A stretch of DNA of 32,000 bases from Candidatus Saccharimonadota bacterium. GTDB taxonomy: Bacteria; Patescibacteriota; Saccharimonadia; Saccharimonadales; UBA4665. The stretch is taken from positions 570,001 through 602,000 of the forward strand of contig CP064993.1 in assembly GCA_016699955.1 (NCBI GenBank), read 5' to 3'. Shown here in pieces: positions 8,758 to 26,139 of the stretch (position 1 is the stretch's first letter; each line of letters starts with the position of its first letter). Under the pieces are notes generated by a model, which worked only from the letters and a program-made list of their open reading frames with translations, made no database searches and had not been told where the DNA came from. Position numbers and translations under genes: made by a program.

Positions 8758-11706
8758 ATGTTATTAAGTCTACAAAAATTAAATCAAAAGAAGTTCAAAT
8801 ATGAACGTGGTCTATCTATGGTTCCGATGCTCATACATCTGCCTCCTCCGAGTGAAGATACGGAGTTAAATGGCCGTGACGTACGAGATCTTGTTGACGA
8901 AAATATTTCCAAAGCACAAATTATTTACAACATTATAGCGAGCACAATAGAGCAAAGTTTTAAAAACCGGTTTCATGGGCAGCGTCATTTCTGTTTTGAA
9001 ATCGTCGGCATAAAAGGCTTTGTACGTTTATATACTGCAGTGCCGGCTGACTACGTTAGTGTTATGCAGCAGGCTATCGTAAGCGCCTACCCAGCAGCTC
9101 GTTTGGAAATTACGCCCGAGTACAACATTTTTAGTCAGGTTGGCGGCATGAATGCGGTTATGGGCGGGCAACTAAATCTAAAAGAAAAGTACGCATACCC
9201 AATCGCTACTTACCAAGATTTGAAGCGCGACGCGTTTCAGTCGATACTTAACGCTCTTTCGACTGTGGAAAATGAGGATGGCGCTGCAATCCAGCTATTA
9301 TTCCGTCCGGCTGAAACTTCATGGCGAAAGACGGCGACAGATTTTGCATCTGCAAAGAAGAAAGGGACAGACAAGGGGCTGACTGTCGGCTCGTTTGCAA
9401 AGGACATGATGACGGCTTTTGTTAAGCCGCCAGAGCCTAAAGAGGAACGGGACAAGCCTAAAGATATTTCGTCGCTGGAGCAGTCGATTATTGATGCCAT
9501 AGAAGACAAAACGCGTCATCCTGGTTTTGAGGTTGCAATAAGGATCGTTGCATCTTCAAATGTATCTCAGCGTTCGCAGGCGATATTAAATAACATCATC
9601 GCAAGTTTTTCGTTGTTTGATGCACCTGGCAGGAATGGCTTTGACTATCACTCGGCTCACGATCCATCAGAACTCGTCACAAACTTCTTGCTTAGGGCGT
9701 TTCCTATGCATAAGAAAAAAAATATACTCAATTCTGTTGAGCTAGCCACAATATTTCACTTCCCAGATCAGCGCAGCATACCAACTTCACAGTTGGAGCG
9801 ACAGGACTCAAAGCAAGTAGATGGTCCACGCAATATGCCGCAGGAAGGCTTGTTGCTGGGCTTCAATGTATTTCGAGGAGTGAAAAAGCCGGTTCGATTG
9901 GGGCTGGGCGATAGGCAACGTCATATGTACGTGGTGGGCCAAACGGGTACAGGTAAATCAACCTTTCTCGAAAACCTGGCACTCCAAGATATGTTGCGCG
10001 GAGATGGTTTTGCGTTTGTCGATCCTCATGGTGATACGGCAGAAAAGTTGCTTTCCATGGTGCCTAAGGAACGAGCTGAAGATGTTATATATTTCTGTCC
10101 CTCAGATATGACCTATCCTATGGGATTGAATCTGTTTGAGTTTCATAATGCCGACCAGAAGGACTTCATCATCCAAGAGGTCATTGGTATGCTTTATAAA
10201 CTATATGACCCGCAGCACCAGGGAATTATGGGGCCACGGTATGAAAGTATATTTCGTAACTGCGCGCTTGCGGTCATGGCAGACCCGGCTGGCAGCAGTT
10301 TTGTAGATATTCCCAAACTTTTCCGAGACCCAGAGTATTTAAAACATAAACTTACGTACGTAAAAGATCCTAACGTGCTTGATTATTGGCAAAAAGAATA
10401 TCCGGCAAGTCAGCGATCAAACGACTCAGGTGAGGTCATCAGTTGGTTTGTTAGTAAATTTGGAGCTTTCCTTAGTAATGAAATGATGCGGAATATCATT
10501 GGCCAAACCAAGAGTGCCTTTGACCTGCGCGATGTGATGGACAATAAAAAAATCCTACTGGTTAACCTAAGCAAGGGTCGCACCGGGGAACTCAATAGCA
10601 AACTGCTTGGTATGGTGTTTATCATGAAATTCCAGGCAGCAGCTATGAGTCGATCCGATGTGCCAGAAAACGAACGTACAGACTTTGCGCTTTACGTTGA
10701 CGAGTTCCAGAACTTCTCAACCGATAGCTTTGCGACCATCATGAGTGAAGCGCGCAAATACCACCTGAATCTTATTGTTGCCAACCAGTTTACGACGCAG
10801 CTTACTGAGGAAATCCGTGATGCTGTTTTTGGTAACATTGGTACAATCGTAGCGTTTCGTATTGGGCAAAATGATGTCGAGAGCCTCGGTCGGTACTTTC
10901 AGCCGCACTTCGATGGAGATGATTTGTTGCGTGTGCCGAACGCAAATACGATTGTTCGAACACTCATAAACGGTGTGCCGACTCAGCCATTTAGTATGGC
11001 GACACTGCCACCGCTAGGAAACCCAAATCCGGGTCTTTCCGATGCACTCAAGCAACTTTCGGCTGCAAAGTTTGGCAAACCGCGTGCGGTTGTTGAAAAA
11101 GCAATATTTGAGCGTCTTGCAACGAGGACGCCAGAGCCTACGCCATTTTCTAACCCATTTTCAGCTCAGGCACCTGTAGGCGGGCAGCCAGCGGCGCTTA
11201 CTCCGCCCGCCGTGACGCCAGCGCCTAGTTCAGGCTCGTTTCTCGATGAATGGCTTTCAAAGCAGAAAGCTATGCCAGCATCTGCAAGGCCAACAGCTCA
11301 GCCCAGCAGTGCGACTATGCCAAGCGCCACGCCGTTACCACCCCAGTCTCAAATCGCTACGGATGTTGCCAGTGTTGAGCTAGACGTTGGTACACAGGAG
11401 TCTGTGACTCAGCAGGAAATCAAACCGCTCACGACCGAACCAACAACCGACTTGTACGAAGCGGGTAACGTTTCGAGTGCTGAACTTGACGAGCAAGAAG
11501 TGAAGGGTATTGCCGCGGAGCTAAAGAAGGGCTTAAACTCAGAGCAAGCCGCCCAAGGTACGACGCAGGTGACCCCCCAAGTGCCGACTGATGGCCAGCT
11601 TTTATCCCTCAAATCAGCAGAAAGCCAGGCTCTGGCAAACGGTGATACTATTGCAATCGATAATGATGGCACAATCCACCTAAATAATTCATCTGCCGAG
11701 GACTAA
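8758..11706 (+). CDS. TraD/TraG/VirD4-like (type IV coupling-protein family) P-loop ATPase with a large unknown N-terminal domain and a disordered C-terminal tail
   Basis: Walker A VVGQTGTGKST followed by FAFVDPHGD. Walker B ALYVDEFQNF, then ARKYHLNLIVANQFTTQL. The last ~240 aa are Pro/Ala/Gln/Thr/Ser-rich. An alternative start is ATG 8818. Confidence 0.75.
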   Translation: MLLSLQKLNQKKFKYERGLSMVPMLIHLPPPSEDTELNGRDVRDLVDENISKAQIIYNIIASTIEQSFKNRFHGQRHFCFEIVGIKGFVRLYTAVPADYVSVMQQAIVSAYPAARLEITPEYNIFSQVGGMNAVMGGQLNLKEKYAYPIATYQDLKRDAFQSILNALSTVENEDGAAIQLLFRPAETSWRKTATDFASAKKKGTDKGLTVGSFAKDMMTAFVKPPEPKEERDKPKDISSLEQSIIDAIEDKTRHPGFEVAIRIVASSNVSQRSQAILNNIIASFSLFDAPGRNGFDYHSAHDPSELVTNFLLRAFPMHKKKNILNSVELATIFHFPDQRSIPTSQLERQDSKQVDGPRNMPQEGLLLGFNVFRGVKKPVRLGLGDRQRHMYVVGQTGTGKSTFLENLALQDMLRGDGFAFVDPHGDTAEKLLSMVPKERAEDVIYFCPSDMTYPMGLNLFEFHNADQKDFIIQEVIGMLYKLYDPQHQGIMGPRYESIFRNCALAVMADPAGSSFVDIPKLFRDPEYLKHKLTYVKDPNVLDYWQKEYPASQRSNDSGEVISWFVSKFGAFLSNEMMRNIIGQTKSAFDLRDVMDNKKILLVNLSKGRTGELNSKLLGMVFIMKFQAAAMSRSDVPENERTDFALYVDEFQNFSTDSFATIMSEARKYHLNLIVANQFTTQLTEEIRDAVFGNIGTIVAFRIGQNDVESLGRYFQPHFDGDDLLRVPNANTIVRTLINGVPTQPFSMATLPPLGNPNPGLSDALKQLSAAKFGKPRAVVEKAIFERLATRTPEPTPFSNPFSAQAPVGGQPAALTPPAVTPAPSSGSFLDEWLSKQKAMPASARPTAQPSSATMPSATPLPPQSQIATDVASVELDVGTQESVTQQEIKPLTTEPTTDLYEAGNVSSAELDEQEVKGIAAELKKGLNSEQAAQGTTQVTPQVPTDGQLLSLKSAESQALANGDTIAIDNDGTIHLNNSSAED

Positions 11707-16400: not shown

Positions 16401-16674
16401 AACTTCACATTTAGTAGACGGCGGAATATGTATGATTCGAAAAATACCGGAGGGGGCTTTTACATGCCAGACGGTTTCTTCCTACGCACACATGCGCACA
16501 GATCGGGGTTTGTTCCAATCATTGATGGTGGTAGCAATGAAATGGGTGATGGCTTGGCGGGAACAATGCTGCCAACCAGACAGCGAACACCCAACCCAAG
16601 CATTGCATTGGGGTAGAAAACTCAAACTAATTAGCTAGATGTATCAAATACAACACATTCGGGCAAATATATCC

Positions 16675-16703
16675 TTGACTTGGGCTGAAATGGTCTATAC
16701 AAT
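16675..16703 (+). promoter_or_regulatory. 16S rRNA promoter
   Basis: TTGACT-17 nt-TACAAT, about 210 nt upstream of mature 16S. Confidence 0.55.
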
Positions 16704-16913
16704 AGCCAGCTAGTGCTTTTGAGGTCTCTATTTTGTGTCTCTCAAACTTGGACGTTAAAAATTGAGTAGTGCAACGTCCCCTTTATAACGAGGGGGACAA
16801 TCAACGTCAGTTCACACTGCTAGGTAAAACTAGCGTGAATTGTTTTAGAAATTTCGAATCTGTACTAGATTCAAAAGTAAGTCAGTTTTATAACTGATGC
16901 TAAGACAAATTCT

Positions 16914-18384
<1,471 letters not shown>

Positions 18385-18652
18385 CTAGGGAGAAACTAAC
18401 CTGCAAACGAGTAATCAATGCAGAGTTAGGTCGATGTCGATGGATTGTAAATCAGTACTGACAATTCAATTTCCGGTTTTTATCGGACGGCACATTCAGT
18501 TTCTGAACCTTGTGAACTTGACGTTGATAATGCAGTTCGTAGGTACATAATGATGCTTGCATCAATATGTACCGAAAACAGCATTTTCTCTCCGCAAGGA
18601 GAGGTTGCACTACTCAGTTTTTAACAGTCACAGCACGGCTAGTCTGAATTAT

Positions 18653-18690
18653 AAGGAGCCCCACACTTGCGAGAGGGCTCCTTTTTATTT
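18653..18690 (+). terminator. Intrinsic terminator after the 16S 3' processing stems
   Basis: AAGGAGCCC-13 nt-GGGCTCCTT followed by TTTATTTT. It abuts the stop of the convergent ORF 18685..19179. Confidence 0.6.
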
Positions 18691-19179
18691 TCTCAATCTA
18701 AAGTACGCCCAACAGAGACAAGCGGACATAATTACGCTCGCCACTGAAATCATGATAAGTGTATCAACCATGGATACGGTGCTTCCACCAAAATATTGAC
18801 CACGACCAGAATTAACTGCAATTTCATTTGCAGCGAATAGAGCAAAAATTATCGCAACCAAAATGAATGTAATTGCGCCAATAAGGTAGTTTTTTCTGCT
18901 CGGTGAGTATATTGAAGCATTCGAACGGATGGGACTGTGTGGCGTTTCTGTTTTTCGAAGTTTAAGATAACTTGTTATGCTTACATATACACCCGCTACT
19001 AGAACCGGAACATACGTAATCAAGCCAAAACTTAGTAGGATGCCGCTAAGGCCAATTTTATCGTAAGTACCGAAGTAAACCCAATCGGTGTACATGCCGA
19101 ACAGAAACACTAGTGCAATAATTGAGACTAACACAGATCCTATGAAGCGGACTATTAATGGTGTACGTTTATCATTCAT
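18685..19179 (-). CDS. Integral membrane protein (164 aa, ~4 TM)
   Basis: Hydrophobic ORF 15 nt downstream of the GNAT gene on the same strand. No family was recognised. Confidence 0.6.
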   Translation of the reverse strand: MNDKRTPLIVRFIGSVLVSIIALVFLFGMYTDWVYFGTYDKIGLSGILLSFGLITYVPVLVAGVYVSITSYLKLRKTETPHSPIRSNASIYSPSRKNYLIGAITFILVAIIFALFAANEIAVNSGRGQYFGGSTVSMVDTLIMISVASVIMSACLCWAYFRLRK

Positions 19180-19194
19180 ATTACGATTTTATAT

Positions 19195-19770
19195 TCATTC
19201 ATATCGTTGGGTGAAGGGGAAGCGGAACTTTTTTTTGGCGTCCTGGCTAGCCAACGAAGGCTGTTCGGTAGTGCCACTAACATGTCGTTCAAAGTAGGCC
19301 ATGGGTTGTGGCAGGTGGCTAGAAACAGCCTTGCTGTCTGCGCGGACAAAGCCATGTGATAGATGGTAGGATTGGAGCTTTTCGTTGTCAGACGGGCAGG
19401 TCAGTCGAAGATACTGGCGGCCTTGTTTGGCAACTTCTGCACAAATGAGGTCTATGATTTGGCTGCCAACATGTTGACCACGTAGGCCAGGCGCAACGAC
19501 GAAACGGTGCAGGTAACCGGCTATGGGTGGTTGTTTGCCCCACCGCGCCAAGTCATCCCAGAAAAGCATAAATACGCCGACAATCTCCTCGTCGGTGTGG
19601 GCAACGTACATATTGCCGCCAGCCACAATAGCCTTCAAATTGGTCTCATCTGTTGTCGTTTCGCCCCATGCCAAATCACCCCGGTACATTTTGCTGCGTA
19701 TGCCGTGTGACAGTATAGATTGTATGTCTGGTATGTCTTCTTCTATGGCTGGCGCAATCTCAATGTTCAT
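19195..19770 (-). CDS. GNAT-family N-acetyltransferase
   Basis: Motif A HRFVVAPGLRGQHVGSQIIDLI. Start taken at MNIEIAPAIEED (ATG 19770, with TATACT 8 nt upstream). The longer ORF to 19830 would run into the IS inverted repeat. Confidence 0.8.
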   Translation of the reverse strand: MNIEIAPAIEEDIPDIQSILSHGIRSKMYRGDLAWGETTTDETNLKAIVAGGNMYVAHTDEEIVGVFMLFWDDLARWGKQPPIAGYLHRFVVAPGLRGQHVGSQIIDLICAEVAKQGRQYLRLTCPSDNEKLQSYHLSHGFVRADSKAVSSHLPQPMAYFERHVSGTTEQPSLASQDAKKKFRFPFTQRYE

Positions 19771-19807
19771 ATATTTAGTATAGCAACACAAACTATATTT
19801 GGCCTTT

Positions 19808-21106
19808 AATTCGACCTCCAAGTGCAACAAACCAAAACTATCCTCTAAAAAAGTAGGACATTAGCTTCTCGTCTGCCTTGTCTCTAGAATTAGGTGTGTT
19901 CAGCAACTAATAATCGATGAAAGGAGACAGCTAATGTCCTATCGTCATCTTATCTCAGATGACCGTGTTGTCATAGCAACACTACTGCAAGAACACAGAA
20001 ACCAAAGCTATATCGCCAGTAGGATTGGCGTCAATCGTTCGGCCATCAGTCGTGAGCTGGCTCGCAACAAAACACGAGACAAACCAGTCCAGATACCACT
20101 GCCCAAACGCCCGACCATTCTCGACAAAGACTGCCGCCATGCCCGAGGTAGCGGTCTCGCCCAGGACAAATACGAAGCAGGAGAGAATTACTGCAGCGCA
20201 GTACGCGAAGTTCATCTTGCCAACCGTTTCTATGAACCGCGCAGTGCCCAGCGTGCTGCAACCACACGACGTTTGAATGCAAACCAAAGCCGGCTGCGGT
20301 TGGCATACCAGTCTGGCGACTGGCTCGAACAGTACGTCAGACATCGTCTACTCAAAAATGAGTGGTCACCCGAGCAGATTGCCGGTGGCTTAAGACGAAA
20401 CTACGGTATTGTACTTCACTGGCAAACCATTTACGACTATATCGATCTTTGCTCCAACAAAACAGATAAGAAACAGCTTCAAAAGCACCTTCGGCGCGGC
20501 GGCAGACCGTACCGTCATCACGGTACGAACGAACGCATCAAGGCTAGGCAGAAAGCTCTGCCGCCAATTCAGAGCCGTGACGCAGTGATTGAACAGCGAA
20601 CTCGTCTAGGTGACTTCGAAGGCGACACAATTGTTGGGTTGGACACTAAAGACCGAATCGCCACCCACGTTGATCGAACAAGTGGGGAGTGTCTGCTCGG
20701 GTTAGTACTTGGCTATGACGCACGTAAGATAGCTGACGACACCGCTAAGCGGCTGAAACAATATGCACAGTCCGGGCTCCCCATCCGGACTGTTACATAT
20801 GACCGTGGTACCGAGTTTGCCGAGTATGAGCGTCTGCGAAACAATGCTGCCATAGCTGTGTACTTTGCTGATGCCTATACGCCATCACAGCGTGGCAGTA
20901 ATGAAAATCTAAACAGCCTTGTCCGCCAATACTACCCAAAACGATTCGACTTTAAGACGATTACCCCAAGACAACTCAAAGTCGTAGAAACCAAGCTTAA
21001 CAACCGTCCAAGAAAACGATACAATTTCCGCACGCCTATTCAGCAGAGATACTACGTACAGGCAAGACAGTTAGCCGGTTTTGTTGCACTTCGGGATAGA
21101 ATGTAG
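19808..21106 (+). mobile_element. IS30-family insertion sequence (~1.3 kb; ends approximate)
   Basis: Single transposase ORF. Imperfect terminal inverted repeats: ATTCGACCTCCAAGTGCAACAAACC (19808-19833) versus the reverse complement of GGTTTTGTTGCACTTCGGGATAGAAT (21077-21102). Confidence 0.6.
19934..21106 (+). CDS. IS30-family DDE transposase
   Basis: N-terminal HTH (SYIASRIGVNRSAISRELARN). DDE region FEGDTIVG...TYDRGTEFAEY...SQRGSNENLNSLVRQYYPK. RBS AAAGGAG. Confidence 0.9.
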   Translation: MSYRHLISDDRVVIATLLQEHRNQSYIASRIGVNRSAISRELARNKTRDKPVQIPLPKRPTILDKDCRHARGSGLAQDKYEAGENYCSAVREVHLANRFYEPRSAQRAATTRRLNANQSRLRLAYQSGDWLEQYVRHRLLKNEWSPEQIAGGLRRNYGIVLHWQTIYDYIDLCSNKTDKKQLQKHLRRGGRPYRHHGTNERIKARQKALPPIQSRDAVIEQRTRLGDFEGDTIVGLDTKDRIATHVDRTSGECLLGLVLGYDARKIADDTAKRLKQYAQSGLPIRTVTYDRGTEFAEYERLRNNAAIAVYFADAYTPSQRGSNENLNSLVRQYYPKRFDFKTITPRQLKVVETKLNNRPRKRYNFRTPIQQRYYVQARQLAGFVALRDRM

Positions 21107-21116
21107 GGGCCCAAAC

Positions 21117-21145
21117 TTGTTTTTAAGGGTGCATTCCGGTAAAAT
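21117..21145 (+). promoter_or_regulatory. Candidate promoter for the tRNA-Ala/tRNA-Ile pair
   Basis: TTGTTT-17 nt-TAAAAT, ending about 11 nt before tRNA-Ala and beginning about 10 nt after the IS end. Confidence 0.4.
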
Positions 21146-21156
21146 ACTGCGGTCGA

Positions 21157-21233
21157 GGGGTGATAGCTCAGTTGGCTAGAGCACCTGCTTTGCAAGCAGG
21201 GGGTCCGGGGTTCGAGTCCCCGTCACTCCACCA
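21157..21233 (+). tRNA. tRNA-Ala (anticodon UGC), CCA encoded
   Basis: GGGGTGATAGCTCAGTTGGCTAGAGCACCTGCTTTGCAAGCAGGGGGTCCGGGGTTCGAGTCCCCGTCACTCCACCA. The G3:U70 identity pair is present. Confidence 0.95.
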
Positions 21234-21458
21234 AATATTTTGAGACAAACGTTAAGTTTTTCTCATCCAAACAGGGGAACGGAATGAATCCGTTTGATCG
21301 TCTGCTCACCCTAGCAAATTAGGGAAAATTCATGGGGGCGCAGTGCCTAAAGCACAGCGTCTCCACCAAAACGAATTTACCAGACGCGTCAAAAGCGTCG
21401 CCACAATCGTTGGTAGATTGGGCAAGACTAGTTAACAATTCAATTAGATCTGACCGAT

Positions 21459-21535
21459 GGGCGATTAGCTCAGCTGGTTAGAGCGCGTCACTGATAATGA
21501 CGAGGTCGGAGGTTCGAGTCCCTCATCGCCCACCA
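21459..21535 (+). tRNA. tRNA-Ile (anticodon GAU), CCA encoded
   Basis: GGGCGATTAGCTCAGCTGGTTAGAGCGCGTCACTGATAATGACGAGGTCGGAGGTTCGAGTCCCTCATCGCCCACCA. Confidence 0.95.
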
Positions 21536-21610
21536 GTCAGATCTAATTAAAATTTTATAACAATGTCTAGGCTAGAATTACGAAACGCTCGTCGCCTATC
21601 AAAAAGTTTC

Positions 21611-21637
21611 AAAAATCCGCAGGCAGCGGATTTTTTT
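21611..21637 (+). terminator. Terminator-like hairpin after tRNA-Ile
   Basis: AAAAATCCGC-aggca-GCGGATTTTTTT. Confidence 0.5.
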
Positions 21638-21708
21638 GTGATATATATTACAAAACTGAAGAACGTTTTCAGGGGCGAGGGTGTTGCAAAAATGACTACG
21701 GCATATGC

Positions 21709-21737
21709 TTGACCGCCCCTGTAAAAAAGAGTAGAAT
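21709..21737 (+). promoter_or_regulatory. 23S-5S promoter
   Basis: TTGACC-17 nt-TAGAAT, about 460 nt upstream of mature 23S. A boxA-like TTCTTTTTACAAG lies at ~21846. Confidence 0.5.
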
Positions 21738-22479
21738 TGTACGGATGCTTGAGTTTAGACAGTGAAGCTTCGGTAACGAAGCCAAAACGGAGATAAACCG
21801 CCAAGCTTTAAGCTTAAACTCAAGCTAAAAACGCATCGACGTCTATTCTTTTTACAAGAAACAGGCTGCGGTGAAGTGTCTTGGGTAGCAACTTAACAAG
21901 TTGAATATGTAAGAGAAGAGAATTTGTTCGCTCGACATCGCCCGAGATAATCCTTGGGAGTTACAGCGAACAAAAAAGCAATTCGTATGTGTCTTTGTAA
22001 ACACATACGTCTTAATTTAAGACAAACGGCTATTGATGTGCGATCACACTGGTTTTCAAATTGCCAGATGTGGTACATACCAATAACTAGTCAACACGAG
22101 CATTTATTTTTACGAGTAAGTGTTCGTGATTTAGCTCGACTACCTTCGGGTAATCGAGCAAATTGCACAAAACAGATGAGATTTCGATCTCATCTTTCGT
22201 AAAAAGTTACTCAAGCGCACACAAAGGATGCCTTGACATGCAATACCGAAGAAGGACGTGATGAGCTGCGAAAAGCTCCGGGGAACAGCCAAATATGTTT
22301 TGATCCGGAGATGTCCGAATGGGGAAACCCGGTTAGAGTAATGTCTAATCACCGCTATCTGAATATATAGGATAGTGAGTAGGTAACCGCCTGAACTGAA
22401 ACATCTTAGTAGGGCGAGGAAGAGAAAGTAAACAACGATTCCGGTAGTAGTGGCGAGCGAATCCGGAACAGCCCAAACC

Positions 22480-22655
22480 TATTTTGCTTTTGCCTGGTAA
22501 TTTATTACTGGCAAATAAGTTGGTAGACGAATGTAAATTAGGGGTTGTGACATTGCAAACATCCTTGTGTGGGAGTCCGCTTCGGCGGGAGTCCACACGA
22601 GGCAGCTAGATCTACCAGTGTCTAGCATAAGGTCAAAAATTGATGAGGCGAGCAG
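22480..22655 (+). other. 23S domain I expansion (~145 nt extra relative to my recollection of E. coli ~270-300)
   Basis: It lies between conserved GGAACAGCCCAAACC and GTTGGAAAGCTGCGCC. It contains a GTGTGGGAGTCCGC-TTCG-GCGGGAGTCCACAC hairpin. Confidence 0.55.
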
Positions 22656-22952
22656 AAGCAGTTGGAAAGCTGCGCCATAGACGGTGATAGCCCGGTACGC
22701 CAAGTTTCATCAACCTTATATTTGCAAAGAGCTTGCTGTCGGTTACGTAGCTTCGGCTGTGTATCTAGAGCAAACTCGGTTGTCGAGTAAGTCGGGACAC
22801 GTGAAACCCTGACTGAATCTGGGGGGTCCACCCTCCAAGGCTAAATATATTGCATGATCGATAGAGAACAAGTACCGCGAGGGAAAGGTTAAAAGAACCC
22901 CGGGAGGGGAGTGAAATAGAACCTGAAATTGTGTGCGTACAAGGAGTCGGAG

Positions 22953-23128
22953 CCCGCTCTTCATAGATGAAGAGTATTTGGCAGAAAACAGTTAACAGAT
23001 GACATAAATTTAGCATAAAACATGTAACAGGTATCAGACTTCAGTGTCTGCGATCTAAAACTGGCTAAATTTCTGCTCAACGATATCTGCTACTTGCTAA
23101 ATGGAGCTCATCATTTGTGATGAGCGGG
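22953..23128 (+). other. 23S helix-25-region insertion (~150 nt extra), closed by CCCGCTC/GAGCGGG
   Basis: An AT-rich segment replaces the short hairpin between GTACAAGGAGTCGGAG and GTGACGGCGTGC. No ORF is present. Confidence 0.6.
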
Positions 23129-24245
23129 TGACGGCGTGCTTTTTGTAGAACGATCCAACGAGTTATTTGGCATGGCAAGCTTAAGTCATATGACGTAAGC
23201 CAAGCGAAAGCGAGTCTGAATAGGGCGCATAGTCATGTTGAATAGACCCGAAACCAGGTGACCTAACCATGGGCAGGTTGAAGCGTCGGTAAAACGACGT
23301 GGAGGACCGAACCGTAGCGAGTTGCAACACGCCCGGATGACCTGTGGTTAGCGGTGAAATGCCAATCGAACCTGGAGATAGCTGGTTCTCCTCGAAATAG
23401 CTTTAGGGCTAGCGTTGTACGGTAACATGTGGGGGTAGAGCTCTGTTTTGGACTGGGGGTCGTAAGATTACCCACCCTTGACAAACTACGAATACCACAT
23501 GCGGAACTACAGCAGTCAGAACGGCGGGGCTAAGCTCGTCGCTCGAAAGGGAAACAGCCCAGATCACCATCTAAGGTCCCCAAGTCTATGCTAAGTGGGA
23601 AACGAGGTGGGGTTTCTTAAACAACTAGGATGTTGGCTTAGAAGCAGCCATTCATTTAAAGAGTGCGTAACAGCTCACTAGTCAAGAGACCCTGCGCGGA
23701 AAATGTAACGGGGCTAAGCATAGCACCGAAGATGTGAATTTCTAGATTTATCTAGGAGTGGTAGAGGAGCGTTCCTCTCTGCGTTGAAGCTTGACCGCGA
23801 GGTCTGAGTGGAGCGTGAGGAAGTGAGAATGTTGGAATGAGTAACCATAAGGCAGGTGAGAATCCTGCCCACCGAAAGAGCAAGGTTTCCTGGGCCACGG
23901 TAATCGTCCCAGGGTTAGTCGGTCCTAAGCCGAGGCGCGTAGCGTAGGCGATGGACAACAGGTTAATATTCCTGTACTGGCATGTATTTGTTATATGTGC
24001 GCGGCATAGTAGTAGGAGCGGATTCATGGTTATATCCGTCTAAGTACGAGAAACACGTACGAATGAAACGACCATCAGGTTGAATTCCTATGAAAGTGCT
24101 GACTAGAAAAGCAATATAACGCGTGGTACATGCCATCCGTACCGCAAACCGACACAGGTGCTCAGGTCGAGAAGACCAAGGTGTACGAGTGATTCTTCGT
24201 TAAGGAACTCGGCAAACAAGCGACCGTAACTTCGGGATAAGGTCT

Positions 24246-24480
24246 GCCCCCTCACTCTGTCTATGACAGGTGAGTATGCCAGTTTTCTTTTTGAAAACTA
24301 TGATTGCTACTGCAAGTTTATAACTTCTTGCAGCTAGCATGTCTACCAAGATCTTTTGAGACATATCAGAAAGAAAGCTGTCCCAAACACACTATTTACA
24401 AAGCTGCTTCAGGACCCGAAAGGGAAAAGAGCAGCCCGAGAAAAACCGCAAGGTTTGTCTCATAGGTAGAGTGAGGGGGC
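24246..24480 (+). other. 23S helix-63-region insertion (~190 nt extra), closed by a perfect 13-bp stem
   Basis: GCCCCCTCACTCT (24246-24258) pairs with AGAGTGAGGGGGC (24468-24480). It is flanked by conserved CTTCGGGATAAGG and GCAACTGTTTACCAAAAACACAG. Confidence 0.65.
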
Positions 24481-25358
24481 CGCAGCTAAGGAACCCATGC
24501 AACTGTTTACCAAAAACACAGGTCTGTGCTAACACGAAAGTGGATGTATACGGGCTGACTCCTGCCCAGTGCTGGAAGGTTAAGGGGAGTTGTGTATGCA
24601 GCGAACTGAAGCCCCAGTGAACGGCGGCGGTAACTATAACCGTCCTAAGGTAGCGAAATTCCTTGTCAGGTAAGTTCTGACCCGCACGAATGGAGTAATG
24701 ATATGGGTACTGTCTCAACGAAGAGCTCGGTGAAAGTGCATTGACGGTAAAGATGCCGTCTGTCCGCAGCAGGACGAAAAGACCCCGTGCAGCTTTACTA
24801 TAGCTTGACATTGAGCCGGGTTATAACATGTGTAGTATAGGTGAGAGGCTTTGAAGCAGAGACGCTAGTCTCGGTGGAGCCACCAGTGAAATATCACCCT
24901 TGTTATGATCTTGTTCTTACGGGAGCCACAAATTGGTAATGAGACAAAACTACATAATGTTTTGAGTTCCTCGTTATTAGTTTCTGGCTTCCGGACCGTG
25001 TCTGGTGGGTAGTTTAACTGGGGCGGTTGCCTCCTAAAGAGTATCGGAGGCGTTCAAAGGTTAGCTAACTACGGATGGAAATCGTAGTGATAGTGTATAC
25101 GCATAAGCTAGCTTGACTGTGAGGCCTACAAGCCGAGCAGGGACGAAAGTCGGAGTAAGTTTTCCGCTGTCAGTACATTTGTACAAGAGTGTGGTATCGG
25201 CAGCGCTTTCGGATAAAAGTTACGCCGGGGATAACAGGCTTATAGCATCCAATAGTTCACATAGACGATGCTGTTTGGCACCTCGATGTCGGCTCATCTC
25301 ATCCTGGGGCTGAAGCAGGTCCCAAGGGTCCGGCTGTTCGCCGGTTAAAGAGGTACGT

Positions 25359-25392
<34 letters not shown>

Positions 25393-25935
25393 TTATATCC
25401 GCTGTGGACGCAAGGAAATTTGAGAGGATCTACCCCTAGTACGAGAGGACCGGGGCGGACGCACCGCTGGTGTATCAGTTGTTCTACCAAGGGCATTGCT
25501 GAGTAGCTATCGTGCGGAATAGATAAGCGCTGAAAGCATATTAAGCGCGAAACTAGCCTCAAGATTAGATTTCCCTATGAGGGTCGTGAAAGACTATCAC
25601 GTTGATAGGCGCAAGGTGTAAGTGCAGTAATGTATTCAGCCGAAGCGTACTAATCGCCCCATTGACTTTTTACGACCTATGAATCGTGCATTTTACGTGC
25701 ATGGTTCATAGGCAAAAAAGTGCATTGACTAGTTATTGGTGTGGTTTTACCATGCTGGTAGCAACGTTTGTTTTAACATTGCTTGCTCTTTTTTACATAC
25801 TATCGTCTAATTGTAATGGACATCGACACCGACTGTGACTATTCCTTGTACCAAGGGAAAAGAGCAGCCGAAGCCAGCGGATTTATTCCGCGACTCCGCG
25901 CGACCGAGAAAAACCGTAGGTTTGTCTCAGTTATG

Positions 25936-26048
25936 TCGGTGCCCATAGCGAGAGGGTCACACCTGTTCCCATACCGAACACAGCAGTTAAGCCTCTCAGC
26001 GGTTACAATACTTGGGTCTTCTAGCCCTGGGAAAATAGCACGGTGCCG
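25936..26048 (+). rRNA. rrf: 5S ribosomal RNA
   Basis: GTTCCCATACCGAACACAGCAGTTAAGC core. Helix I pairs CGGTGCC with GGTGCCG (with G-U pairs). Confidence 0.85.
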
Positions 26049-26058
26049 TTTTATGACT

Positions 26059-26086
26059 AAGCCCTCCATTCGTGGAGGGCTTTTTC
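26059..26086 (+). terminator. Intrinsic terminator of the 23S-5S unit
   Basis: AAGCCCTCCA-ttcg-TGGAGGGCTTTTT. Confidence 0.8.
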
Positions 26087-26119: not shown

Positions 26120-26139
26120 GCACCGTGCTATTTTCCCAG
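26120..26139 (+). repeat. 20-nt perfect inverted copy of the 5S 3' segment (partner 26027-26046)
   Basis: GCACCGTGCTATTTTCCCAG is the exact reverse complement of CTGGGAAAATAGCACGGTGC. Confidence 0.8.

What the first reader, a model, noticed from the sequence alone, without database searches (positions are those of the whole stretch)
18385..22200. rRNA operon split into three transcription units with protein-coding genes and an IS inside a 3.8-kb 16S-23S gap
Seen in sequence:
- 16S has its own promoter (TTGACT-17-TACAAT).
- 16S has two long-range flanking stems: 16754-16775 pairs with 18604-18625, and 16799-16815 pairs with 18512-18528.
- 16S is followed by an intrinsic terminator (18653-18690).
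- Next come a convergent two-gene unit (GNAT acetyltransferase plus membrane protein, minus strand) and an intact IS30-family element.
- tRNA-Ala and tRNA-Ile follow, then a terminator-like hairpin (21611-21637).
- 23S-5S has a separate TTGACC-17-TAGAAT promoter (21709-21737) and its own flanking processing stem.

The canonical 16S-Ile-Ala-23S-5S co-transcription is therefore broken, leaving 16S and 23S unlinked. Stoichiometric rRNA synthesis would have to rely on promoter matching.

This is apparently the only rRNA locus in the window of a small genome, so an accessory insertion here is notable.
Basis: partly seen in the sequence, partly recalled or inferred. Interest (0 to 1): 0.65.

Follow-up and report, generated by a model that had tools for sequence, protein, structure and literature searches.

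The report
Split rRNA locus of a Saccharibacterium
The 16S and 23S ribosomal RNA genes of this small-genome Saccharibacteria (CPR) bacterium are separate, self-contained transcription units with ordinary genes and a jumping gene between them; this layout is inherited across the lineage and already known for the group, not a recent accident.

Summary
The window comes from a Saccharibacteria (Saccharimonadales) genome.

Comparison with about ten related genomes changes the interpretation:
- **The split is ancestral.** All ten genomes have the covarying 16S flanking stem followed by a hairpin and T-run terminator. The 16S, tRNA-Ala and 23S promoters are conserved in the close relatives.
- **The tRNA pair behaves as its own unit.** It is inverted relative to the rRNA genes in four relatives.
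- **The gap size is typical.** 16S-23S distances in the lineage range from 1 to more than 9 kb.
- **The GNAT gene is not accessory.** It sits convergent to 16S in at least three related genomes.

Only two parts are specific to this genome. One is a four-helix membrane ORF with no homologues. The other is an intact 1304-bp IS30-family element with a 3-bp target duplication, inserted in the GNAT/tRNA-Ala divergent promoter region. A close relative carries a different IS at the same spot.

Unlinked rRNA genes are already documented for CPR bacteria, so this is a new member of a known kind.

One thing found in passing deserves follow-up. A 35-nt hairpin ending in ACCA mimics the acceptor end of tRNA-Ala. 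It lies between the two tRNAs and recurs in 47 distinct forms in related metagenome contigs.

The parts
16675..16703 (+). 16S promoter, TTGACT-17-TACAAT
   Evidence: Consensus scan. The -35 hexamer is invariant and the -10 is TACAAT or TATAGT in L081, L082 and L085 (alignment A1).
16713..16728 (+). boxA-like leader motif GTGCTTTTGAGGTCTC (candidate antitermination box)
   Evidence: Largely invariant in the four aligned genomes. The resemblance to boxA is from memory and was not tested.
16754..16815 (+). 5' strands of the two 16S flanking stems (16754-16775 and 16799-16815), with a small hairpin between them
   Evidence: Inverted repeat I2. For the outer stem across 10 genomes, 19 pairs are 94% paired, 9 pairs changed on both sides, and 0 of 500 shuffles did as well.
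16914..18384 (+). 16S rRNA gene
   Evidence: Rfam RF00177, 1483.6 bits, full length.
18512..18625 (+). 3' strands of the 16S flanking stems (18512-18528 and 18604-18625), separated here by about 75 nt that the relatives lack
18653..18691 (.). Bidirectional intrinsic terminator shared by 16S (+) and the GNAT/membrane unit (-)
   Evidence: Folds on both strands. An equivalent hairpin plus T-run lies 150-310 nt after 16S in all 10 genomes. The loop CTTGCGAGAG is conserved and the stem shows compensatory changes.
18685..19179 (-). 164-aa ORF with four hydrophobic segments; no homologues
   Evidence: No homologue among 5.8 billion proteins. GC is 39.6% against 48% for the window, with four predicted membrane segments. 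Absent from relatives.
19195..19770 (-). GNAT acetyltransferase gene, conserved at this position in the clade
   Evidence: Pfam hit. Homologues at 58-77% identity (one distant hit at 41%) sit convergent to 16S in CP064992.1, PDRS01000007.1, JAEUQV010000098.1 and short Logan contigs.
19804..21107 (+). IS30-family insertion sequence, 1304 bp (transposase 19934-21106), with about 28-bp imperfect inverted repeats and a 3-bp GGC target duplication at 19801-19803 and 21108-21110
   Evidence: NCBIfam IS30 hit. Catalytic residues D231, D290 and E324 with spacing 59 and 34. Ends defined by alignment with a relative at 83% amino-acid identity (L089/L090). Inverted repeats seen. A second, frameshifted copy at 98% identity is in the same 1.21-Mb contig.
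21117..21145 (+). tRNA-Ala promoter, TTGTTT-17-TAAAAT
   Evidence: CTTGTTTT...GGTAAAATAC is conserved directly upstream of tRNA-Ala in L085 and L081; L082 keeps the -10. It is below the scan threshold.
21157..21233 (+). tRNA-Ala (TGC)
   Evidence: ARAGORN and Rfam.
21334..21368 (+). 35-nt tRNA-Ala-like minihelix ending in ACCA (G1-C, G2-C, G3.U, G4-C, then A73-CCA), with no anticodon arm
   Evidence: Folds at -20.5 kcal/mol, z = -4.9. Weak Rfam hit to the paired ends of tmRNA, E = 0.0019. Homologous elements occur in relatives and as 47 distinct forms in related loci, mostly metagenome contigs.
21442..21548 (+). tRNA-Ile (GAT) 21459-21535, enclosed by a perfect 13-bp stem (21442-21454 with 21536-21548)
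   Evidence: I1; z = -5.45. L082 and L023 have the same stem built from different sequence.
21611..21637 (+). Terminator-like hairpin plus T-run at the end of the tRNA unit
   Evidence: L081 has an equivalent hairpin with changed stem bases.
21637..21652 (.). Near-palindrome TGTGATATATATTACA upstream of the 23S promoter (candidate operator)
   Evidence: Conserved across window, L081 and L082, and partly in L085 (11 of 16 bases), whatever lies upstream (alignment A3). No function was tested.
21709..21737 (+). 23S-5S promoter, TTGACC-17-TAGAAT
   Evidence: Consensus scan. TTGAC and TA..AT are invariant in four genomes with three different upstream contexts.
22076..22094 (+). 5' strand of the 23S flanking stem (pairs with 25725-25743)
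   Evidence: 19 nt at 95% complementarity. Equivalent stems with compensatory changes in L082, L015 and L018.
22200..26082 (+). 23S rRNA (22200-25674), 260-nt spacer, 5S rRNA (25935-26051) and terminator (26059-26082)
   Evidence: Rfam. Terminator -19.3 kcal/mol, z = -4.2.

Best explanation
This is the normal, inherited rRNA locus of a Saccharimonadales (Saccharibacteria, CPR) bacterium. The rRNA genes are arranged as independent, self-contained transcription units rather than one operon.

**The units**
1. Promoter, boxA-like leader, long flanking stem, 16S, then a bidirectional terminator.
2. On the opposite strand and ending at the same terminator, a conserved GNAT gene. In this genome an orphan membrane ORF follows it.
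3. A promoter immediately upstream of tRNA-Ala, then a minihelix, tRNA-Ile and a hairpin terminator.
4. Promoter, flanking stem, 23S, 5S and a terminator.

**Consequence.** Because each unit carries its own start, processing and stop signals, the DNA between units is a permissive zone. Across the lineage it has accumulated different genes, inversions of the tRNA module and insertion sequences. In this genome an intact IS30-family element landed, with a 3-bp duplication, in the divergent GNAT/tRNA-Ala promoter region. It left the tRNA promoter intact.

**Shown:** gene content, conserved signals, covariation and synteny. **Inferred:** actual transcription start and stop points, RNase III cleavage at the stems, and that 16S:23S stoichiometry is set by matched promoters.
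For: **Identity.** GyrA is 80-84% identical to Saccharibacteria MAGs, and gyrA followed by 16S is conserved.

**16S unit.** The promoter is conserved in A1. The outer stem has 9 of 19 pairs with changes on both sides and beat all 500 shuffles. A hairpin plus T-run follows 16S in 10 of 10 genomes, including those with only 1.4-1.6 kb gaps.

**tRNA unit.** Its own conserved promoter is seen. The module lies on the opposite strand to 16S and 23S in L003, L015, L016 and L082, which rules out co-transcription with the rRNAs there.

**23S unit.** The promoter is invariant in four genomes although the upstream neighbour differs: tRNA terminator, inverted tRNA promoter, or protein-coding genes. The flanking stem is present in four of the five genomes checked (not found within 200 nt in L081).

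**Gap content in relatives.** It varies: RRM protein plus ATP-grasp ligase, PadR, peptidase, metalloprotease, surface proteins. Gap lengths run from 964 to 9147 bp and beyond.

**GNAT.** It is conserved in place.

**IS.**. A different, degenerate IS481-family element sits at the same intergenic spot in CP064992.1.

**Literature.** Unlinked rRNA genes are reported for Patescibacteria (10.1101/705046), for 27 of 34 circularised CPR genomes including the class with opposite-strand genes between 16S and 23S (PMC8172020), and for TM7x, which has pyrD between 16S and 23S (PMC12424978).
Against: - No transcript data exist. Promoters and terminators are inferred from consensus plus conservation only.
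- The number of consensus promoter and terminator matches in the region is not above shuffles.
- rRNA antitermination complexes could let some polymerases read through the post-16S terminator.
- The strict 23S promoter pattern was not found upstream of 23S in the four more distant relatives. Independence of the 23S unit is therefore shown only for the close clade.
- The two Saccharimonadia genomes in PMC8172020 were classed as operonic, so the trait is not universal in the class.
- The metagenome loci used for the gap distribution were ascertained through the minihelix pattern.
Confidence: 0.8

Rival explanations
1. A canonical 16S-tRNA-23S-5S operon was recently broken in this strain by insertion of an accessory block (GNAT, membrane protein, IS30), leaving 16S and 23S newly unlinked.
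For: The IS is intact with a target duplication, and a second copy in the genome points to recent activity. The membrane ORF has no homologues and is AT-rich. None of the first 80 GyrA-anchored relatives has the block.
Against: GNAT homologues sit in the same convergent position after 16S in three independent related genomes. The post-16S terminator and the flanking stems are present in all ten genomes. The tRNA and 23S promoters are conserved. Removing the IS and the ORF would still leave a convergent GNAT gene and a terminator between 16S and 23S.
Confidence: 0.05
2. The locus still works as one operon. Polymerases starting at the 16S promoter, modified by a boxA/Nus antitermination complex, read through the terminator, the antisense genes, the IS and the tRNAs into 23S-5S. 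The internal promoters are minor.
For: A boxA-like motif is conserved in the 16S leader. All RNA genes and the transposase are on the same strand. Intrinsic terminators are never fully efficient.
Against: A strong, conserved bidirectional terminator lies directly after the processing stem in every genome. A convergent two-gene unit would collide with read-through. The 23S unit has its own conserved consensus promoter and boxA-like leader. In four relatives the tRNAs are antisense to any such transcript, and in several no 23S lies within 6-14 kb.
Confidence: 0.1
3. The 3.8-kb block is an assembly chimera or a collapsed repeat placed wrongly between 16S and 23S.
For: rRNA genes and IS copies are classic break points. 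Many related MAG contigs end inside 16S, and a second IS copy exists in the genome.
Against: The same order, 16S-GNAT-tRNA-Ala-tRNA-Ile-23S, is found in independent assemblies, including a complete chromosome (CP064992.1) and short single-sample contigs that span 16S-GNAT-tRNA-Ala. The IS is flanked by a 3-bp duplication. Its flanks join to give sequence homologous to the uninterrupted intergenic region of relatives. The source contig is 1.21 Mb.
Confidence: 0.02

Closest known systems
Unlinked rRNA genes of CPR/Patescibacteria (Brewer et al. 2019/2020, 10.1101/705046; Lui et al. 2021, PMC8172020; TM7x with pyrD between 16S and 23S, PMC12424978)
   Same: Same phylum-level group. The 16S-23S distance exceeds both published thresholds. 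Protein genes, some on the opposite strand, lie between 16S and 23S, and 23S-5S stay together. There is a single rRNA copy in a small genome.
   Different: Those papers classify by distance and strand only. Here the unit structure (promoters, covarying stems, terminators) is traced and shown to be conserved. The gene content of the gap differs: GNAT, an orphan ORF and IS30, instead of pyrD.
Classical split rRNA loci such as Thermus thermophilus, Helicobacter pylori, Borrelia, Rickettsia and Buchnera (from memory and as cited in PMC8172020)
   Same: 16S is transcribed apart from 23S-5S, each with its own promoter and its own flanking processing stem.
   Different: In those organisms the genes are usually far apart on the chromosome. 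Here they remain neighbours 3.8 kb apart on the same strand, with the spacer tRNAs as a third unit.
Canonical bacterial rrn operon (E. coli type: P-16S-tRNA-Ile/Ala-23S-5S, with RNase III stems and boxA)
   Same: Same gene set and strand, long flanking stems around 16S and 23S, a boxA-like leader, and tRNA-Ile and tRNA-Ala in the spacer.
   Different: There is a terminator after 16S, antisense genes and an IS in the spacer, separate promoters for the tRNAs and for 23S, and the tRNA order is Ala-Ile.
IS30 family insertion sequences
   Same: Single transposase with an N-terminal HTH and a DDE core with 34 residues between the second D and the E. It has imperfect terminal inverted repeats, a 3-bp target duplication, and the right repeat overlaps the end of the gene.
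   Different: At 1304 bp it is slightly longer than the about 1.0-1.25 kb I recall as typical. The nearest full-length relative is only 83% identical and known only from unnamed metagenome contigs.
Synthetic alanine minihelices (Francklyn and Schimmel 1989, as cited in PMC4033280) and the tRNA-like domain of tmRNA
   Same: The 35-nt element at 21334-21368 has a 12-13-bp helix with G3.U70, A73 and CCA. That is the feature set known to suffice for charging by AlaRS. Rfam aligns it weakly to the paired ends of tmRNA.
   Different: It is encoded in a genome and conserved. It has no T-loop (stable tetraloops or pentaloops instead), no mRNA-like domain and no anticodon arm. Charging was not tested.

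Membership tests
Unlinked rRNA genes (Brewer et al. criterion) | 16S and 23S more than 1500 bp apart | tested here: met
   The gap is 3815 bp. I recalled the 1500-bp threshold from memory. A full-text search of the preprint (10.1101/705046) for '1500 bp' found no occurrence, so I could not confirm it from the text.
Unlinked rRNA genes (Lui et al. type D, PMC8172020) | [quoted passage not shown] | tested here: met
   The gap is 3815 bp. The GNAT gene and the membrane ORF are on the minus strand.
Independent transcription units | Primary 5' ends at each promoter and 3' ends at each terminator | not testable with these tools
   Only consensus plus conservation is available. No transcript data.
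RNase III-type rRNA processing stems | Long duplex formed by sequences flanking the mature rRNA, maintained by compensatory change | tested here: met
   16S: 19 pairs, 94% paired, 9 pairs with changes on both sides, 0 of 500 shuffles. 23S: stems in four genomes. Cleavage itself is not testable.
Intrinsic terminator | GC-rich hairpin followed directly by a U-run, at a conserved position | tested here: met
   (10 of 10 genomes). Termination efficiency is not testable.
IS30 family | Transposase matching the family model above its cut-off | tested here: met
   NF033563, 220.4 bits against a cut-off of 80, E = 3.5e-65.
IS30 family | Intact DDE triad with about 33-34 residues between the second D and the E | tested here: met
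   D231, D290 and E324, with spacing 59 and 34. The family spacing is from memory.
IS30 family | Terminal inverted repeats and a 2-3-bp target duplication | tested here: met
   Inverted repeats match at 21 of 28 positions, with a perfect 12-nt core. GGC flanks both ends. The chance of a 3-bp match is about 1 in 64 per frame, so this is suggestive rather than proof.
GNAT acetyltransferases | Pfam Acetyltransf_1/7/10 domain above the gathering score | tested here: met
   40.4 bits against a cut-off of 20.7. The substrate is unknown: RimI scores only 19 bits against a cut-off of 86, and the nearest solved structures are generic.
tRNA (cloverleaf) - for the 21334-21368 element | D arm, anticodon arm and T arm | tested here: not met
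   Not called by ARAGORN or by the Rfam tRNA model. It is a single hairpin.
Alanine-acceptor identity (AlaRS substrates) - for the 21334-21368 element | G3.U70 pair in the acceptor helix, A73, 3' CCA | tested here: met
   The sequence shows G1-C, G2-C, G3.U, G4-C, then ACCA. In the metagenome set these positions were fixed by the search pattern. In the six genomes found without that constraint they are also present. Aminoacylation is not testable here.

The most novel reading that the evidence does not exclude
The tRNA unit inside the gap encodes a previously undescribed small RNA family: a 35-37-nt, anticodon-less top half of tRNA-Ala. It has a 12-13-bp helix with G3.U70, A73-CCA at the 3' end and U at position -1.

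On this reading RNase P releases it from the tRNA-Ala/tRNA-Ile transcript and AlaRS charges it. That would give Saccharibacteria a natural alanyl-minihelix that cannot enter translation. It could serve as an alanine donor for cell-wall or lipid modification, or as a decoy or regulator.

The element is conserved in at least 47 sequence-distinct forms. It evolves independently of the neighbouring tRNA-Ala.
Probability: 0.3. Interest if true: 0.75.

Novelty: new member of a known kind. Interest (0 to 1): 0.3.

Why it matters
**The finding itself.** It adds one more documented case of unlinked rRNA genes in a CPR bacterium. The modest added value is the mechanistic picture. In this lineage each rRNA gene and the spacer tRNAs carry their own promoter, processing stem and terminator. 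This explains why the spacer tolerates protein genes, inversions and different IS elements.

It has practical consequences:
- 16S-ITS-23S long amplicons will miss or mis-size these organisms.
- Metagenome assemblies break here.

**The minihelix.** If it proves to be a processed and charged RNA, it would be a natural counterpart of the laboratory alanine minihelix. That would bear on how anticodon-independent aminoacylation is used in cells.

Tried and rejected
- **Exact-protein look-ups.** The window's transposase, its GyrA and P0024 were not on record, so the source record and the second IS copy could not be read directly.
- **Block proteins in GyrA-anchored relatives.** tblastn of the GNAT, membrane and transposase proteins against the first 80 relatives found nothing. 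This first suggested a strain-specific block. The GNAT homologue search and context look-ups overturned that.
- **Membrane ORF.** No Pfam or NCBIfam family and no homologue. Whether it is a real gene remains open.
- **GNAT function.** The RimI match is far below cut-off and the nearest solved structures are generic. I rejected any specific ribosome-related or aminoglycoside-related role as unsupported.
- **Whole-flank duplex folding.** It gave uninformative global pairings (one search timed out) and was replaced by a focused stem alignment.
- **RNAalifold on the MAFFT alignment of minihelices.** It recovered only the acceptor stem, because the inner stem was misaligned. It was replaced by counting pairs on the 36-nt class.
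- **Strict 23S promoter and palindrome patterns.** Neither was found in the four distant relatives.
- **Minihelix as a fresh partial copy of tRNA-Ala.** Rejected, because positions 5-7 differ from the neighbouring tRNA-Ala in 33 of 33 loci.
- **Minihelix as a degenerate tmRNA.** Rejected, because only the paired ends match.
- **Literature searches.** Minihelix or tRNA-like together with Saccharibacteria or Patescibacteria found nothing. One search failed on syntax.

Full report
**What is in the window.** Rfam and ARAGORN place the RNA genes as follows, all on the + strand: 16S at 16914-18384, tRNA-Ala(TGC) at 21157-21233, tRNA-Ile(GAT) at 21459-21535, 23S at 22200-25674 and 5S at 25935-26051. 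There is no other rRNA in the 32 kb. The 16S-23S gap is 3815 bp. gyrB and gyrA lie directly upstream. GyrA is 80-84% identical to proteins of Candidatus Saccharibacteria/Saccharimonadales MAGs. The window's own GNAT protein is recorded on a contig of 1,211,496 bp. The source is therefore a small CPR genome.

| Feature | Coordinates | Evidence |
|---|---|---|
| 16S promoter TTGACT-17-TACAAT | 16675-16703 | |
| 16S outer flanking stem | 16754-16783 with 18596-18625, 30 nt, 90% | |
| 16S inner flanking stem | 16799-16815 with 18512-18528, one bulge | read |
| Post-16S terminator | hairpin 18653-18683 plus TTTTTATTTT | |
| GNAT gene | 19195-19770 (-) | Pfam E = 4e-10, |
| Membrane ORF | 18685-19179 (-) | |
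| IS30 transposase | 19934-21106 | 220 bits, cut-off 80, |
| tRNA-unit hairpin plus T-run | 21611-21637 | |
| 23S promoter TTGACC-17-TAGAAT | 21709-21737 | |
| 23S flanking stem | 22076-22094 with 25725-25743, 19 nt, 95% | |
| Terminator after 5S | 26059-26082 | |

The post-16S hairpin folds at -16.6 kcal/mol on the + strand and -17.9 on the - strand. The stop codon of the convergent ORF lies inside it, so it is a shared bidirectional terminator. The consensus scan missed it only because its loop is 13 nt. The GNAT gene starts at the ATG at 19770. The 164-aa ORF that follows it has four hydrophobic segments.

One caution applies. The counts of promoter-like and terminator-like sites in the region are no higher than in shuffles. 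The consensus matches carry weight only because of what follows.

**Relatives show the split is inherited, not recent.** GyrA-anchored loci from one genome per species show that gyrA followed by 16S is conserved. What lies after 16S is very variable:
- Gaps of 1.4-1.6 kb with the tRNAs in Ile-Ala or Ala-Ile order (L021, L023).
- Gaps of 4.0-4.5 kb containing an RRM protein and an ATP-grasp ligase (L015, L018).
- No 23S within 6-8 kb, only surface-protein genes (L003, L016).

None of these loci has the window's gap proteins. However, homologues of the GNAT protein (58-77% identity, plus one distant hit at 41%) led to closer relatives with 16S identity of 94.7-96.5%. These share the order gyrB-gyrA-16S-GNAT(opposite strand)-tRNA-Ala-tRNA-Ile-23S-5S:
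- CP064992.1 (L081), a complete 1.23-Mb chromosome.
- PDRS01000007.1 (L082). Here the tRNA pair is inverted, and PadR and a 149-aa gene lie in the gap.
- JAEUQV010000098.1 (L085). Here the gap exceeds 7 kb and holds five protein genes.
- Several short single-sample contigs that span 16S-GNAT-tRNA-Ala.

The GNAT gene is therefore an old resident of the spacer. The arrangement is not an assembly chimera.

**The signals are conserved.** In alignments with L081, L082 and L085:
- The 16S -35 hexamer is invariant, the -10 is TACAAT or TATAGT, and much of the leader is largely invariant.
- The 23S promoter (TTGAC., TA..AT) and its leader are invariant. This holds although the sequence upstream is a tRNA terminator, an inverted tRNA promoter or a protein-coding gene, depending on the genome.
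- A third promoter, CTTGTTT-17-TAAAAT, sits directly upstream of tRNA-Ala in the window (21117-21145), L085 and L081.

The outer 16S flanking stem can be drawn in all ten genomes. Over 19 pairs, 94% of cells are paired and 9 pairs carry changes on both sides. No shuffle out of 500 reached the observed values, and sliding the partner strand drops pairing to 34-46%.

A hairpin plus T-run follows that stem, 150-310 nt after the 16S 3' end, in ten of ten genomes. This includes the two with short gaps. The loop motif CTTGCGAGAG is conserved and the stem bases are compensated.

23S flanking stems with compensatory differences are present in the window, L082, L015 and L018. In four relatives (L003, L015, L016, L082) the tRNA module lies on the strand opposite to 16S and 23S, so it must be transcribed on its own there.

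Across 25 Saccharibacteria-like loci with both gene ends, the 16S-23S distance is 964-9147 bp, and 19 of the 25 exceed 1500 bp. Fifteen more loci have no 23S start within 3-14 kb. The metagenome part of that sample was ascertained by an unrelated pattern.

**Best explanation.** The locus is a set of autonomous units:
1. Promoter, leader stem, 16S, trailer stem, terminator.
2. The convergent GNAT unit, ending at the same terminator.
3. Promoter, tRNA-Ala, minihelix, tRNA-Ile, hairpin.
4. Promoter, stem, 23S, 5S, terminator.

Autonomy of the units came first. It made the inter-unit DNA a tolerant landing zone, which the lineage has filled in different ways. The inference of separate transcription units stands, pending transcript mapping.

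**What is specific to this genome.**
- *The membrane ORF.* It has no homologue in 5.8 billion proteins. Its GC is 39.6% against 48% for the window, and it is absent from relatives. It may be a young or acquired gene, or not a gene at all.
- *The IS.* Alignment with a related element (83% amino-acid identity; L089, L090) defines it as 19804-21107, 1304 bp. It has about 28-bp imperfect terminal repeats and GGC on both flanks. The DDE residues are D231, D290 and E324. A 256-aa frameshifted copy, 98% identical, is recorded from the same 1.21-Mb contig, so the element has been active in this genome.
- *Where the IS sits.* It lies 34 bp upstream of the GNAT start and about 10 bp upstream of the tRNA-Ala -35, inside the divergent promoter region. 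In L085 that region is only 76 bp long and uninterrupted.
- *A possible hot spot.* CP064992.1 carries a different, degenerate IS481-family element at the same spot, together with a 44-nt partial copy of tRNA-Ala. That makes this intergenic region a recurrent IS target or safe site.

**Comparison with what is known.**
- Unlinked rRNA genes are documented as a clade-level trait of Patescibacteria (10.1101/705046).
- 27 of 34 circularised CPR genomes were unlinked. One defined class is separated by more than 2 kb with opposite-strand genes between 16S and 23S. The two Saccharimonadia genomes in that study were counted as operonic (PMC8172020).
- The cultivated Saccharibacterium TM7x has pyrD and a hypothetical gene between 16S and 23S (PMC12424978).

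The window meets both published criteria. It is a new member of a known kind. The only increment is the conserved unit architecture, which those distance-based surveys did not examine.

**Noticed in passing: the alanine minihelix.** Between tRNA-Ala and tRNA-Ile lies GGGGGCGCAGTGCCTAAAGCACAGCGTCTCCACCA (21334-21368).
- *Structure.* It is a single hairpin of 12 pairs around one mismatch, ending in single-stranded ACCA. It folds at -20.5 kcal/mol with z = -4.9.
- *Resemblance to tRNA-Ala.* Its first four pairs are G-C, G-C, G.U, G-C, followed by A73-CCA. That is the acceptor end of tRNA-Ala, including the G3.U70 pair that AlaRS reads (established knowledge). It is 35 nt long, the size of a tRNA top half.
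- *Database matches.* Rfam aligns it only weakly, to the paired ends of tmRNA (E = 0.0019). tRNA finders do not call it.
- *In relatives.* Equivalent elements with different stem sequences occur in L081, L082, L085, L021 and L023.
Of 122 matches, 69 fold as full hairpins, giving 47 distinct sequences in all, counting the window and its genomic relatives. The typical form is GGGGUGA-A-NNNGGC-GAAA-GUCNNN-R-UCACUCC-ACCA. They lie 1-10 nt after a tRNA gene (the pattern allowed no more) in tRNA-Ala/Ile(/Val) clusters. Where an rRNA gene is also on the contig, its 16S is 81-97% identical to the window's over segments of very different length.
- *Covariation.* On the 26 distinct 36-nt members, 7 of 13 pairs show changes on both sides, in 51 cells. 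Members were selected for folding, so the percentage paired is biased.
- *Independence from tRNA-Ala.* In 33 of 33 loci, positions 5-7 differ from those of the neighbouring tRNA-Ala. It is therefore not a fresh partial duplicate.
- *Literature.* I found no description of such an element in the searchable papers.
- *Function.* Whether it is an RNase P substrate, a charged alanine carrier or merely a processing punctuation mark is untested.

**Other observations** are listed separately:
- A covarying stem enclosing tRNA-Ile.
- A near-palindrome upstream of the 23S promoter, conserved in window, L081 and L082 and partly in L085.
- boxA-like leader motifs.
- A 175-nt extra hairpin in the window's 23S.
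- An inverted copy of the 5S 3' end.

**Verdict.** The phenomenon is known for the group and ancestral in this clade. Interest is low to moderate, with one side observation that merits its own follow-up.

Noticed in passing
window 21334-21368 (+); also L081, L082/L083/L130, L085, L021, L023 and about 60 metagenome loci (L092-L210): A 35-37-nt hairpin ending in ACCA mimics the acceptor end of tRNA-Ala (G3.U70, A73, CCA, U at -1) but has no anticodon arm. There are 47 distinct covarying sequences, most from metagenome contigs plus six from the window and its genomic relatives, usually 1-10 nt after tRNA-Ala in Saccharibacteria-like tRNA clusters. Positions 5-7 always differ from the neighbouring tRNA-Ala. 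No description was found in the searchable literature.
   Followed up: partly
window 21442-21454 with 21536-21548: A perfect 13-bp stem encloses tRNA-Ile (fold z = -5.45). L082 and L023 have the same kind of stem built from different sequence, so it covaries. It is possibly an RNase III-type processing stem around a tRNA.
   Followed up: partly
window 21637-21652 and 16640-16655: The near-palindrome TGTGATATATATTACA lies about 60 bp upstream of the 23S -35. It is conserved in window, L081 and L082 and partly in L085 (11 of 16 bases), whatever lies upstream. A weaker TGTATCAAATACAACA sits about 60 bp upstream of the 16S transcription start. This could be a shared operator coordinating the two promoters.
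   Followed up: no
window 16713-16728 and 21745-21760: boxA-like motifs lie just downstream of the 16S and 23S promoters (GTGCTTTTGAGGTCTC and ATGCTTGAGTTTAGAC). Both are largely invariant in relatives.
   Followed up: no
window 22953-23128 (inside 23S): An extra hairpin of about 175 nt (-71 kcal/mol, z = -6.9) is absent from the 23S of all relatives compared. It could be an intervening sequence or an expansion segment. It helps make this 23S 3475 nt long against a 2925-nt model.
   Followed up: partly
window 26027-26046 and 26120-26139: The last 20 nt of 5S have a perfect inverted copy 73 nt downstream, beyond the terminator. A 17-nt version exists in L081 but none in L082.
   Followed up: partly
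L081 (CP064992.1) 8815-9885: The closest relative has a degenerate IS481-family element in the same GNAT/tRNA-Ala intergenic region, plus a 44-nt partial duplicate of tRNA-Ala carrying the conserved tRNA promoter. L085 and L015 carry partial 5' copies of tRNA-Ile. L003 has a 16-nt copy of the tRNA-Ile 3' end after its terminator. The region is rearrangement-prone.
   Followed up: partly
L003, L006, L007, L017, L019 (16S genes): Several related 16S genes have insertions of 60-160 nt near position 80 that the window's 16S lacks.
   Followed up: no
window 8758-11706 (+): A 982-aa ORF has weak TraD/VirD4-type coupling-ATPase matches. It lies directly upstream of gyrB and is conserved at that position in L081, L082 and L085, where it is annotated DUF8128 plus AAA_22.
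   Followed up: no
window 18529-18603: About 75 nt separate the 3' strands of the inner and outer 16S stems in the window. In all close relatives these two strands are contiguous.
   Followed up: no
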